Shown: one piece after another, positions 2,126 through 29,534 of the stretch | Numbering within the stretch: position 1 is the stretch's first letter | Layout: every line of letters starts with the position of its first letter | Virus genome (UHGV): UHGV-0389216 | Origin: a virus | Length of the DNA: 42,736 nt | Reading direction: 5' to 3' (one strand) | Translations under genes and position numbers: made by a program | Notes under the pieces: generated by a model | Told to the model about the DNA's origin: nothing | Databases searched by the model: none | The model's input: the letters and a program-made list of their open reading frames with translations, nothing else

Positions 2126-2467
2126 ATGAGGGGTATTATTTTTCTGTTAGCTGTCTTTTCTGCGTGCAGCGCGTGGGCGGATGGCTTCACGGTTAAATGC
2201 GGTGGCTACACTATGGTTGCAAACCAGGGCGAGTTATCGACAATCAACGGTGAAAGAGTTACCTCTCAAAAAATCACCGAACTGGGTACCAATGGTTTGA
2301 AAGTAGACATGGGGCTTATGCCTGCCAAAGACGGTAACAACTACGGCTTTGAATACATTCGTCGCCCTGGTACCGAAACGCGATTCCTGAATGTCCAACT
2401 GCTGCAGAACAGCATGGATGCGCCGAAAATCATCGGTTCCTTTCCATGCAAAAAGATTGTTGATTAA
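2126..2467 (+). CDS. small secreted protein / possible lipoprotein (moron)
   Basis: 113 aa; N-terminal signal peptide MRGIIFLLAVFSACSAW with lipobox-like FSAC; inserted between baseplate genes. Confidence 0.5.
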   Translation: MRGIIFLLAVFSACSAWADGFTVKCGGYTMVANQGELSTINGERVTSQKITELGTNGLKVDMGLMPAKDGNNYGFEYIRRPGTETRFLNVQLLQNSMDAPKIIGSFPCKKIVD

Positions 2468-27850: not shown

Positions 27851-28080
27851 AATGCTCTATTCTCAGTAAAAGTTAATAAAACAGGGTTTTCGTCGCGAAA
27901 AAACGCTATGCAGTTTTTGCCCTTTTTTATGCACCTTTTATTCACTCGAATTTCGCCATTCTGGACCACTTAAGTTGATTAAATAGGCCTTTCATCGCAA
28001 ATCTATTGCGAGCGGGGATCGTGTGGTTCCTATAACGTACATTATGTTAAATAACCTTCTTTTTTAACAAATTTAACAAG

Positions 28081-28103
28081 GTTCGCTATGGCGAACTTTT
28101 TTT
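28081..28103 (+). terminator. rho-independent terminator (tR'-like, before lysis genes)
   Basis: GTTCGC-TATG-GCGAAC hairpin followed by TTTTTTT, about 100 bp upstream of the holin start. Confidence 0.6.
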
Positions 28104-28204
28104 GTATTCAGGGCCCACCGAAGGACGGCTCATAACCCAATTCTACGGGCGTATACGCAGGGCCCGCCTTTCAACAACACCCCGTAATGGCGGAGGTGGG
28201 AAGT

Positions 28205-28546
28205 ATGAAAATGCACAATGCTCCTCATTCCTGGCCTGACTTACTGGAACTCTTACAAAGTTGGTGGCGTGGAGATACGCCGTTGGGCGCAGTGGTTATG
28301 TCAATTGTTATGGCTGGTTTGCGCATTGCCTATTTTGGCGGTGGCGGCGGCTGGAAACGAAAAACGCTTGAGATTTTGCTCTGTGGTGCTCTGACGCTGA
28401 CCTTTGCATCCGCTCTTGAGTATGTTGGATGGCCTAAATCGCTTTCTGTTGCCATTGGTGGTGGTGTTGGGCTGATCGGTGTCGATGCTATTCGTGGGGC
28501 TGCAATGCGAGTAATCGGTAACAAGTTTGGTGGCTCTAAGGAGTAA
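28205..28546 (+). CDS. holin (three predicted TM segments, dual-start MKM)
   Basis: GGAGG 9 nt upstream of ATG 28205; Met-Lys-Met dual start; three hydrophobic helices; immediately upstream of endolysin. The ORF-track start at 28187 has no SD. Confidence 0.7.
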   Translation: MKMHNAPHSWPDLLELLQSWWRGDTPLGAVVMSIVMAGLRIAYFGGGGGWKRKTLEILLCGALTLTFASALEYVGWPKSLSVAIGGGVGLIGVDAIRGAAMRVIGNKFGGSKE

Positions 28547-28549
28547 TTC

Positions 28550-29026
28550 ATGCAGACACTAAATTCCCAACGTAAAGCTTTCCTGGATATGGTGGCATGG
28601 TCAGAAGGAACGGATAACGGGCGACAACCAACACGTAATCACGGTTATGACGTTATCGTCGGAGGTGAGTTGTTCACTGATTACTCCGATCACCCTCGCA
28701 AACTTGTCACGCTAAACCCGAAGCTTAAATCAACAGCTGCAGGCCGGTATCAGCTTCTTTCACGCTGGTGGGATGCCTACCGCAAGCAGCTTGGCCTGAA
28801 AGATTTTTCGCCAGAAAGTCAGGACGCTGTGGCGCTGCAGCAGATTAAAGAGCGTGGCGCTTTACCGATGATTGAACGTGGCGATATTCGTCAGGCAATC
28901 GACCGTTGCAGCAATATCTGGGCGTCGTTACCTGGTGCAGGTTACGGTCAGTATGAACATAAAATCGGTGACCTGATTTCCAAGTTTAAAGATGCTGGTG
29001 GGGTGGTAAATGAAGCTGACTTATAA
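28550..29026 (+). CDS. R: endolysin, lambda R-type lytic transglycosylase
   Basis: 158 aa; ...NQRKAFLDM.AWSEGTDNGRQ.TRNHGYDVIVGGELFTDYSDHPRKLVTLNPKLKST.AGRYQLLSRWWDAYRKQLGLKDFSP... is near-identical over long stretches to lambda R as I remember it. Confidence 0.9.
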   Translation: MQTLNSQRKAFLDMVAWSEGTDNGRQPTRNHGYDVIVGGELFTDYSDHPRKLVTLNPKLKSTAAGRYQLLSRWWDAYRKQLGLKDFSPESQDAVALQQIKERGALPMIERGDIRQAIDRCSNIWASLPGAGYGQYEHKIGDLISKFKDAGGVVNEADL

Positions 29027-29534
29027 GATTGTCATCGCGGCACTTTTCTTCTCTGCCCTTGGGGCGCTCGTCTGGTCTGCAAACCATTACCACAGCAAGT
29101 ATCAGGCAGAAAAGTTGCGGGCTGATAAAGCGGAAGGTGAAGCTGAATATCAAGGGAAAGTGATAGTTAATCAGGCATTAAACTTCAATCGTTTTAACCA
29201 GATAGCAGAAAACGCAAGCCGATTAAATTCTCTGGTCGACATCGGTCACGAGAAGACAGTCATCAAATACCGTGAGGTTCTGCTCCGTGAAAAGAACTGT
29301 GATTTCCCTGTTCCTGCTGATATTGCTGTCGGGTTGCTCAACTACGCGAACCGTTTACGCGCCAGCGCATTGCACGCCGATTCCGGGGACATTGACTCAG
29401 CCAGTGATCGTGCCACTACCACCAGAACGTTGACATATTGCCAGGCTGTTCTGTGGATTAACCCACTGTTGGCAGCCATCGAGAAGGCGAATAACCAGTT
29501 GGCTGGTGTCCGACAAATAGAACAATCCCGGTAA
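29010..29534 (+). CDS. Rz: Rz-like inner-membrane spanin (i-spanin)
   Basis: 174 aa; N-terminal TM helix IVIAALFFSALGALVW then coiled-coil periplasmic domain; overlaps endolysin end; contains embedded +1-frame lipoprotein ORF. Confidence 0.65.
   Translation: MKLTYKIVIAALFFSALGALVWSANHYHSKYQAEKLRADKAEGEAEYQGKVIVNQALNFNRFNQIAENASRLNSLVDIGHEKTVIKYREVLLREKNCDFPVPADIAVGLLNYANRLRASALHADSGDIDSASDRATTTRTLTYCQAVLWINPLLAAIEKANNQLAGVRQIEQSR
29287..29433 (+). CDS. Rz1: Rz1-like outer-membrane lipoprotein spanin (o-spanin), embedded, GTG start
   Basis: +1 frame inside Rz: GAGG then GTG 29287; translation MKRTVISLFLLILLSGC STTRTVYAPAHCTPIPGTLTQPVIVPLPPER gives a signal peptide, LSGC lipobox and Pro-rich mature part. 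Confidence 0.6.
   Translation: MKRTVISLFLLILLSGCSTTRTVYAPAHCTPIPGTLTQPVIVPLPPER

What the first reader, a model, noticed from the sequence alone, without database searches (positions are those of the whole stretch)
29010..29534. Embedded Rz1 o-spanin initiates at GTG; the Rz gene contains no internal ATG in any frame
After the Rz start at 29010 there is no ATG on the plus strand before 29572, yet the +1 frame encodes a textbook lipoprotein (MKRTVISLFLLILLSGC followed by a Pro-rich mature peptide) starting at GTG 29287 with GAGG upstream. This is the lambda Rz/Rz1 embedded architecture but with a non-ATG start that standard ORF callers miss.
Basis: seen in the sequence. Interest (0 to 1): 0.4.

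Follow-up and report, generated by a model that had tools for sequence, protein, structure and literature searches.

The report
Embedded GTG-start o-spanin inside Rz
A small outer-membrane lipoprotein gene (the o-spanin that helps the phage burst its host) really is hidden inside the Rz gene and starts at GTG; its relatives are already catalogued, but here the usual o-spanin domain is split between the two overlapping reading frames.

Summary
There is no ATG on the + strand between 29010 and 29572. GTG 29287, with GAGG 9 nt upstream, opens a 48-aa lipoprotein ORF (MKRTVISLFLLILLSGC...) in the +1 frame of Rz, directly after the holin and endolysin genes.

In about 75 related loci from Enterobacterales the same ORF, start position and stop position are conserved. 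The start is GTG in 48 loci, ATG in 7, CTG in 6 and TTG in 4. GTG follows from the overlapping Rz Arg codon, CGT. The ATG-free state is specific to this lineage and probably incidental.

This is a member of the embedded spanin family (HK225, mEp237, ZF40) already listed in SpaninDB (Kongari 2018) with the same 48-aa, GTG-started o-spanin. GenBank and RefSeq records mostly miss it.

One thing goes beyond the finding. The Pfam LysC o-spanin domain is split here: its N-terminal half is Rz1 and its C-terminal half is the last ~35 residues of Rz. A conceptual join aligns without gaps to the overlapped o-spanin of phage SfIV. This points to a one-base frame swap linking the embedded and overlapped spanin architectures. 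Programmed frameshifting is not supported.

The parts
28205..28546 (+). Lambda-family holin with an M-K-M dual-start motif (ATG 28205, ATG 28211). An upstream in-frame ATG at 28187 also exists.
   Evidence: TIGR01594 holin_lambda 135 bits and Pfam Phage_holin_3_1. RefSeq and GenBank relatives annotate the 342-nt form. Sequence read.
28550..29026 (+). Endolysin (lambda R-like; called GH24 or GH104 by PGAP). Overlaps the Rz start by 17 nt.
   Evidence: phrog_90 endolysin, E = 2e-63. Annotated endolysin / GH24 in relatives.
29010..29534 (+). i-spanin (Rz), 174 aa. It has an N-terminal transmembrane helix, helical periplasmic segments, a variable linker (about aa 122-140) and a highly conserved C-terminal helix.
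   Evidence: phrog_214 'Rz-like spanin', E = 1e-58. 1836 homologues found. Alignments A2/A3. 64.7% identity to HK225 Rz. 33% identity to the SfIV i-spanin over aa 1-130, E = 2e-20. AF2 secondary structure, low confidence.
29274..29277 (+). Shine-Dalgarno-like GAGG, 9 nt upstream of the Rz1 start. It is encoded by the Rz codons Arg-Glu-Val.
   Evidence: Sequence. The homologous cgGGAGat element is conserved in relatives and is marked as the SD in SpaninDB.
29287..29433 (+). Embedded o-spanin (Rz1), 48 aa, GTG start, +1 frame of Rz. The mature lipopeptide is 32 aa (CSTTRTVYAPAHCTPIPGTLTQPVIVPLPPER).
   Evidence: phrog_456 'Rz-like spanin', E = 7.5e-7. Pfam LysC positions 1-33, 16.9 bits. Conserved in about 75 loci. 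73% identical to HK225_EOS (my count against the sequence).
29326..29337 (+). Lipobox L-S-G-C (Cys17 is the acylated residue). The +2 residue is Ser, which implies outer-membrane sorting.
   Evidence: Sequence. Pfam LPAM_1 18.5 bits, just under its cut-off of 20. The position is conserved as [LV][VAT][GA]C in relatives.
29431..29433 (+). Rz1 stop codon TGA, lying inside the Rz codons TTG-ACA (Leu141-Thr142).
   Evidence: The stop is at the identical position in every locus examined: TGA 58, TAA 19. The Rz codon there is CTG 36, ATG 15, ATA 11, TTG 5, TTA 3, GTA 1. The amino acid varies, but T[G/A] never does.
29415..29528 (+). C-terminal segment of Rz (aa 136-173, ...TLTYCQAVLWINPLLAAIEKANNQLAGVRQIEQSR). 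It is homologous to the C-terminal half of LysC-type o-spanins.
   Evidence: Pfam LysC positions 31-68. phrog_3001, E = 2.8e-7. Ungapped alignment of the conceptual fusion to the SfIV o-spanin, E = 3e-13. It is the most conserved part of the family.

Best explanation
Window 28205-29534 is a lambdoid lysis cassette: holin, endolysin and a two-component spanin in the embedded arrangement.

The two spanin genes:
- Rz (29010-29534) encodes the inner-membrane i-spanin.
- GTG 29287, served by GAGG 9 nt upstream, starts a 48-aa prolipoprotein in the +1 frame. Inferred steps: signal peptidase II cleaves it before Cys17, the Cys is acylated, and the Lol pathway sorts it to the outer membrane (Ser at +2). 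It would then pair with Rz across the periplasm to disrupt the outer membrane at the end of lysis.

Why GTG: the start codon is made of bases 2-3 of the Rz Arg93 codon (CGT) plus base 1 of Glu94 (GAA). An ATG there would need His, Tyr, Asn or Asp in Rz. Relatives with His or Tyr at that position do have ATG.

Which family: the pair belongs to the HK225/mEp237/ZF40 spanin family.

Probable origin (inferred from homology): the family looks like an overlapped SfIV/Mu/P2-LysC-type pair in which a one-base frame change at the PLPP|LTY junction (about 29425-29430) moved the o-spanin's C-terminal helix onto the i-spanin. That left a short proline-rich o-spanin whose stop codon is now under selection.
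For: Shown directly:
- ORF, GTG, SD and lipobox are in the sequence.
- The cassette context is holin then endolysin.
- Rz matches phrog_214 and Rz1 matches phrog_456, both 'Rz-like spanin'.

Comparative evidence:
- About 75 of 77 loci from many enterobacterial genera keep the +1 lipoprotein ORF.
- The start position is NTG in 65 loci, and the codon tracks the Rz residue: Arg or Ser gives GTG, His or Tyr ATG, Thr or Ala CTG, Phe or Leu TTG. The Arg codon is CGT in 44 of 46 loci.
- The stop position is invariant while the Rz amino acid there varies. Ile is always the rare ATA codon.
- Mature Rz1 is conserved at 0.74 pairwise identity, against 0.48 for the Rz frame beneath it.
- No other lipobox ORF lies near the cassette.

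Prior knowledge: SpaninDB lists HK225_EOS and mEp237_EOS as 48 aa from the homologous GTG.

Frame swap:
- Pfam LysC is split, with positions 1-33 in Rz1 and 31-68 in the Rz C-terminus.
- The natural 1-nt insertion variant in E. coli 99E2750 yields a 78-aa protein that PGAP names LysC. The same fusion extended to the GTG 29287 start (82 aa) scores 36.4 bits against a cut-off of 27.
- Nine of nine conceptual fusions from divergent loci score 37.8-47.5 bits end to end.
- The window's fusion aligns ungapped to the SfIV o-spanin, 38% identity over 65 aa, E = 3e-13.
- Rz aa 1-130 are homologous to the 130-aa SfIV i-spanin.
Against: - No expression, lipidation or lysis data exist for this phage or, to my knowledge, for any member of the family.
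- The start codon is inferred, not mapped. A second in-frame GTG at 29272 would give a 53-aa precursor, and one GenBank genome annotates that form.
- Rz1 alone is below the Pfam LysC and LPAM_1 cut-offs and has no NCBIfam hit.
- The direction of the frame swap and the number of steps are not established.
- The only closely related contiguous proteins found look like sporadic frameshift or assembly variants.
- The Rz structure model is of low confidence, pLDDT 54.
Confidence: 0.8

Rival explanations
1. The o-spanin starts at the upstream in-frame GTG 29272, giving a 53-aa precursor (MRFCSVKRTV...), not at 29287.
For: It is the longest ORF in that frame. It also satisfies a lipoprotein-signal pattern. 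GenBank annotates it as 'putative lipoprotein Rz1 precursor' in E. coli O103:H2 12009 (P0122). The mature lipoprotein would be identical either way.
Against: No purine-rich SD precedes 29272. In relatives the homologous codon is GGG, which is part of the GGGAG SD for the downstream start, so it is not a conserved start. The 29287 position is NTG in 65 loci. SpaninDB chose the 29287-equivalent start.
Confidence: 0.1
2. A programmed -1 ribosomal frameshift just before the Rz1 stop codon joins the Rz1 frame to the Rz frame. It would make a full-length LysC-like o-spanin of about 82 aa, alongside or instead of the 48-aa product.
For: The LysC domain would be restored exactly, without gaps, by a -1 shift in the last two Rz1 codons. 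The stop codon sits at an invariant position directly next to the LTY motif in all loci.
Against: There is no conserved slippery heptamer. The Pro codons vary at their third positions and the last two codons vary freely across loci. Selection on the stop codon and the full-length conserved Rz reading frame are explained more simply by a short o-spanin plus a long i-spanin.
Confidence: 0.03
3. The +1 ORF is a non-functional remnant of a frameshifted LysC gene. The spanin system here is degenerate, which is tolerated because spanins are dispensable under many laboratory conditions.
For: The LysC domain is interrupted. Many copies sit in prophages. No functional data exist.
Against: The split arrangement is conserved across genera at 38-69% identity and in a separate IMG/VR sub-family. 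The mature Rz1 peptide, the NTG start and the stop are under evident purifying selection, and the Rz C-terminal segment is the most conserved part of Rz. Inducible phages carry it.
Confidence: 0.05
4. The absence of any ATG in Rz is adaptive, for example to stop stronger internal starts from competing with the weak GTG start of Rz1.
For: It is the longest ATG-free stretch in the window. Synonymous resampling gives P = 0.025.
Against: Homologous Rz genes with the same GTG-started Rz1 usually hold 2-10 ATGs. The consensus Rz even has an internal Met. The statistic is post hoc.
Confidence: 0.05

Closest known systems
HK225 / mEp237 / ZF40 embedded spanin family (SpaninDB; Kongari et al. 2018, PMC6139136)
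   Same: Same architecture and clear homology. Rz is 64.7% identical to HK225 Rz over 80% of its length. Rz1 is 48 aa with a 32-aa mature part, about 73% identical to HK225_EOS. It shares the GTG start position, the SD and the stop position.
   Different: The N-terminal TMD region of Rz is of the SfV/SfIV type, not the HK225 type. The window's Rz has no internal ATG. That paper does not mention that the i-spanin C-terminus is homologous to LysC-type o-spanins.
SfIV / SfV / SfII (Mu o-spanin family) and P2 LysB/LysC overlapped spanins
   Same: The i-spanin is homologous over aa 1-130 (E = 2e-20). The o-spanin N-terminal half is homologous to Rz1 (E = 3e-7). The o-spanin C-terminal half is homologous to the window's Rz C-terminus. 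The holin and endolysin are 88% identical in DNA.
   Different: In those phages the o-spanin is one contiguous protein (P2 LysC 96 aa; SfIV about 91 aa from its likely start) that extends past the end of a 130-141-aa i-spanin, which is the overlapped arrangement. Here the reading frames are swapped at the PLPP|LTY junction, giving a 174-aa i-spanin and a 48-aa embedded o-spanin.
Lambda Rz / Rz1
   Same: It shares the embedded +1-frame arrangement after S and R, the type II inner-membrane protein paired with a short proline-rich outer-membrane lipoprotein, and presumably the membrane-fusion role.
   Different: No sequence homology is detectable, with no Pfam match to the lambda families. Lambda Rz1 starts at ATG. 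Lambda Rz is 153 aa and Rz1 60 aa, from my own knowledge plus the SpaninDB tables.

Membership tests
Two-component spanin, embedded architecture | The o-spanin ORF lies wholly within the i-spanin gene in another frame. | tested here: met
   29287-29433 lies inside 29010-29534, in the +1 frame.
Two-component spanin, embedded architecture | The i-spanin has an N-terminal transmembrane helix and a largely helical periplasmic domain. | tested here: met
   Hydrophobic stretch KIVIAALFFSALGALVW at aa 6-22. The AF2 secondary structure is helical, but the model is of low confidence.
Two-component spanin, embedded architecture | The o-spanin has a lipoprotein signal peptide with a lipobox Cys and no Asp at +2. 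| tested here: met
   MKRTVISLFLLILLSG|CS: K/R n-region, uncharged h-region, LSGC lipobox, Ser at +2. Pfam LPAM_1 scores 18.5 against a cut-off of 20. No dedicated LipoP or SignalP tool was available.
Two-component spanin, embedded architecture | The genes are clustered with holin and endolysin genes. | tested here: met
   Holin 28205-28546 and endolysin 28550-29026 lie immediately upstream.
Two-component spanin, embedded architecture | Both products are needed for outer-membrane disruption at lysis. | not testable with these tools
   This needs genetics: silent-in-Rz knockouts of Rz1, with lysis scored in the presence of Mg2+.
HK225 spanin family (SpaninDB criterion: at least 40% identity over at least 40% of length) | i-spanin identity to HK225_EIS. 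| tested here: met
   64.7% identity over 80% of the query.
HK225 spanin family (SpaninDB criterion: at least 40% identity over at least 40% of length) | o-spanin identity to HK225_EOS. | tested here: met
   35 of 48 residues are identical (my count against the SpaninDB sequence). Length, start and stop positions are the same.
Pfam LysC (PF23793) / NCBIfam P2_Rz1 (NF038368) | The whole protein scores above the curated cut-off (27 bits). | tested here: not met
   Rz1 alone scores 16.9 bits, covering profile positions 1-33 only. There is no NF038368 hit. Only a conceptual or mutational fusion with the Rz C-terminus passes, at 36.4 bits.
Lambda Rz / Rz1 Pfam families | Sequence match to the lambda Rz or Rz1 models. 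| tested here: not met
   Neither family appears among the Pfam hits at E <= 1.
Programmed -1 ribosomal frameshift site | A conserved slippery heptamer (X XXY YYZ) at the frame junction. | tested here: not met
   The junction is CCA CCA GAA CGT TGA. Third positions and the last two codons vary freely among about 70 distinct loci.

The most novel reading that the evidence does not exclude
This spanin family records a conversion between the 'overlapped' and 'embedded' gene architectures by a single-base frame swap. The C-terminal helical half of a LysC-type o-spanin has become the C-terminus of the i-spanin, its binding partner. What remains is a 32-residue proline-rich lipopeptide as the o-spanin, with its stop codon held in place by selection. 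That would be the first documented family bridging the embedded and overlapped architectures. Kongari et al. 2018 reported that no such family existed and argued that the two architectures arose independently.
Probability: 0.7. Interest if true: 0.55.

Novelty: new member of a known kind. Interest (0 to 1): 0.35.

Why it matters
For annotation:
- The i-spanin is labelled 'hypothetical protein' or 'endopeptidase Rz' in every near-identical E. coli genome and phage record I inspected.
- The o-spanin is missing from nearly all of those records.
- A simple rule would fix this family: an NTG 16 codons before the lipobox Cys, and a stop inside the x-T-Y codons.

For biology:
- The start-codon analysis is a clean example of a non-ATG start dictated by the amino acid needed in the overlapping frame.
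- The split LysC domain suggests that a domain can move between two interacting subunits by a frameshift in their overlap. It offers a concrete route from overlapped to embedded spanin genes.

Tried and rejected
- NCBIfam gave no family hit for Rz, Rz1 or the fusion.
- Searching the protein database with the conceptual fusion found only the E. coli 99E2750 variant and proteins that look like sporadic frameshift or assembly chimeras. No natural close contiguous o-spanin turned up.
- P0156, a 74-aa contiguous 'PLPPRKLTYGEVVLW' protein, looked like an intermediate form. It is not on record in the contig index. Its 31 IMG/VR relatives turned out to have the same split, embedded arrangement, and tblastn had joined pieces from two frames.
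- I looked for a conserved slippery site that would support programmed frameshifting and found none.
- I considered an intermolecular disulfide between Rz Cys144 and Rz1 Cys29 re-joining the two domain halves. There is no covariation. L048/L050/L052 lack the Rz1 Cys but keep TYC, and the IMG/VR sub-family has TYR in Rz but keeps the Rz1 Cys. I dropped the idea.
- AlphaFold2 on Rz with 23 sequences gave pLDDT 54, usable only for secondary structure. I did not run fold searches on it.
- Literature searches for HK225+spanin, DUF2570 and spanin+frameshift found nothing on the split domain beyond Kongari 2018.
- An adaptive explanation for the ATG-free stretch was rejected because relatives contain ATGs.

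Full report
**1. What is in the sequence**

The region is the lysis cassette of a temperate E. coli phage.
- The window's lysis region is 98.9% identical to Escherichia phage vB_EcoM-606R2 and three sister phages. The record is 42,743 bp, about the size of the window.
- The genes run holin (28205-28546, lambda family), endolysin (28550-29026), a 174-aa 'Rz' (29010-29534), then the small and large terminase subunits.
- On the + strand there is no ATG between 29010 and 29572. This 562-nt gap is the longest in the window; the next longest is 331 nt.
- In the +1 frame of Rz, GTG 29287-29289 opens an ORF ending at TGA 29431-29433. It encodes V/M-KRTVISLFLLILLSGCSTTRTVYAPAHCTPIPGTLTQPVIVPLPPER, 48 aa.
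- GAGG lies at 29274-29277, 9 nt upstream.

The signal has a K/R n-region, an uncharged hydrophobic core, an LSGC lipobox and Ser at +2.

**2. Is the ORF real, and where does it start?**

I fetched 77 loci encoding Rz homologues from one-genome-per-species bacterial contigs. They cover Kluyvera, Citrobacter, Enterobacter, Kosakonia, Pantoea, Erwinia, Serratia, Providencia and others, at 38-69% identity.

Conservation of the ORF:
- About 75 of the 77 loci carry the same +1 lipoprotein ORF...VKKPVICLFLLxLLVGCSNTRTVYVPAQCTPIPxxLTQPxIxPLPPxx*.
- The mature Rz1 peptide has 0.74 mean pairwise identity. The Rz frame beneath it has 0.48.
- That pattern is expected if the +1 frame is the selected one there and Rz has only a linker in that stretch.

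The start codon:
- The codon 16 positions before the lipobox Cys is GTG in 48 loci, ATG in 7, CTG in 6 and TTG in 4.
- It tracks the overlapping Rz residue. Arg or Ser gives GTG, His or Tyr gives ATG, Thr or Ala gives CTG, and Phe or Leu gives TTG.
- Where Rz has Arg, the codon is CGT in 44 of 46 loci.
- So the non-ATG start follows from dual coding. The start is bases 2-3 of Arg93 (CGT) plus base 1 of Glu94 (GAA).
- The upstream in-frame GTG 29272 corresponds to GGG in relatives, where it is part of the GGGAG SD. I therefore prefer 29287. One GenBank genome annotates the 53-aa form.

The stop codon:
- It is at the identical position in every locus.
- The Rz codon containing it is CTG, ATG, ATA, TTG, TTA or GTA. 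The amino acid varies (Leu, Met, Ile, Val), but the bases T[G/A] followed by the A of Thr never do.
- Ile is always the rare ATA codon. The stop itself is under selection.

No other lipoprotein-like ORF lies near the cassette. The only other candidate, 2126-2467, is 27 kb away and has no Pfam match.

**3. The ATG-free stretch**
- Relatives with the same Rz1 usually hold 2-10 ATGs in Rz.
- The family consensus even has an internal Met.
- Resampling synonymous codons of this Rz gives no out-of-frame ATG in 2.5% of trials.

I regard the feature as a lineage-specific curiosity, not a designed one.

**4. What is already known**

Kongari et al. 2018 (PMC6139136) list an embedded family (HK225, ZF40, mEp237).
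- Their table gives HK225_EOS as MKRPVICLFLLMSLVGCSNTRTVYVPAQCTPIPTDLTQPMIVPLPPAQ. It is 48 aa, with a 32-aa mature part, and is noted as 'found it emb in Rz'.
- In the HK225 record that start is a GTG at the homologous position.
- The window's Rz is 64.7% identical to HK225 Rz, and Rz1 is about 73% identical to HK225_EOS.

The finding is therefore a new member of a catalogued family.

Public annotation still misses it.
- The four near-identical phage records annotate only 'endopeptidase Rz'.
- 24 of the 25 listed RefSeq E. coli records call Rz 'hypothetical protein' and have no Rz1.
- A search of 1.84 billion representative proteins found only 23 relatives of the 48-aa product. Most are over-long calls ending at the same stop.

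**5. What went beyond the finding: a split o-spanin domain**

Pfam LysC (PF23793, 69 positions, the P2 LysC o-spanin family) matches in two pieces. Positions 1-33 fall in Rz1 (aa 12-46) and positions 31-68 fall in Rz (aa 136-173).

Evidence that the two pieces belong together:
- E. coli 99E2750 has a 1-nt insertion after window position 29400 that joins the frames. PGAP calls the result 'Rz1-like lysis system protein LysC' (78 aa) beside a 132-aa Rz.
- That fusion, extended to the GTG 29287 start (82 aa), scores 36.4 bits end to end against a cut-off of 27.
- Nine of nine conceptual fusions from divergent loci score 37.8-47.5 bits end to end. The genuine SfIV o-spanin scores 57.1.
- The window's conceptual fusion (Rz1 aa 1-47 plus Rz aa 140-174) aligns without any gap to the SfIV o-spanin: 38% identity over 65 aa, E = 3e-13. 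The two pieces alone give E = 3e-7 and E = 0.002.
- Rz aa 1-130 are homologous to the 130-aa SfIV i-spanin, E = 2e-20.

SfII, SfIV and P2 have the overlapped arrangement, with a contiguous o-spanin running past the end of the i-spanin. The two arrangements are thus colinear and homologous, and differ by one base of reading frame at the PLPP|LTY junction.

This C-terminal segment is the most conserved part of Rz in the family. An independent IMG/VR sub-family (...PLPPAE* followed by RMTYRQAVLW...) has the same split. The arrangement is old and maintained, not a recent lesion.

Kongari et al. state that no family combined embedded with overlapped members, and they favoured independent origins. 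This family appears to be a counter-example. I found no paper describing it.

**6. Mechanism, and its rivals**

Most likely (about 0.8): ordinary internal initiation at GTG 29287 yields a short outer-membrane lipoprotein. It works with a long i-spanin that now carries the former o-spanin helix.

Rivals:
- Programmed -1 frameshifting would regenerate a full LysC-like protein. No slippery heptamer is conserved at the junction, and the last two codons vary freely. I give it about 3%.
- A degenerate remnant is contradicted by the selection seen on start, stop and peptide (about 5%).
- A start at 29272 remains possible (about 10%) and would not change the mature product.

Expression, lipidation, outer-membrane sorting and the lysis role are all inferred from family knowledge. 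None was tested here. The Rz structure model is of low confidence (pLDDT 54) and supports only a helix-linker-helix outline.

**7. Verdict**

Interest is modest for the finding as stated. The split LysC domain and the codon-level evidence for dual-coding constraints raise it somewhat.

Noticed in passing
L002 (E. coli 99E2750, NZ_CP157170.1) 1501-2026; insertion corresponds to window ~29400: A natural 1-nt insertion (an A after ...GACTCAG) converts the embedded pair into an overlapped pair: Rz 132 aa and a LysC-like protein of 78 aa. PGAP annotates the latter as lysC, starting at the GTG equivalent to window 29299. It may be a real variant or a sequencing error.
   Followed up: partly
window 28205-28213: The holin begins M-K-M (ATG AAA ATG). 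This is the lambda S107/S105-type dual-start motif that gives antiholin and holin. A further in-frame ATG lies at 28187.
   Followed up: no
window 28078-28099 (+): A terminator-like hairpin (9-bp stem) followed by a T-run lies about 100 nt upstream of the holin and downstream of the Q-like antiterminator gene. This is where a lambda tR'-type terminator would sit.
   Followed up: no
window ~29126 (inside Rz): DNA similarity to SfV/SfIV/SfII (about 88%) covers the holin, the endolysin and only the first ~118 nt of Rz, then stops. This suggests a recombination junction inside the i-spanin gene, between the TMD-coding part and the periplasmic part.
   Followed up: partly
window 2126-2467 (+): A 113-aa ORF with a signal peptide and a possible lipobox (MRGIIFLLAVFSAC...) has no Pfam match. 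It is the only other lipoprotein-like ORF in the window and lies far from the lysis genes.
   Followed up: partly
L074 (Kluyvera genomosp. 3, CP022114.1): This locus has a frameshift in the opposite sense. The Rz N-terminal part reads straight into the Rz1 frame (...SAMHPIPGTLTQPVIAPLPPAQ*), which destroys both normal products.
   Followed up: no
L086-L116 (IMG/VR contigs): A second, more distant sub-family (Rz C-terminus RMTYRQAVLWIDPLLTLLDRANNDR..., Rz1 ...LLLSGCTTIRTVYVPGQCAIPANLTEPLLVPLPPAE*) has the same embedded and split arrangement and the same stop position. Its hosts were not determined.
   Followed up: partly
RefSeq E. coli genomes H31-H54: PGAP names this i-spanin 'hypothetical protein' in all listed genomes, and NCBIfam has no model for it. 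Pfam DUF2570 (PF10828) is attached to some homologues only.
   Followed up: no
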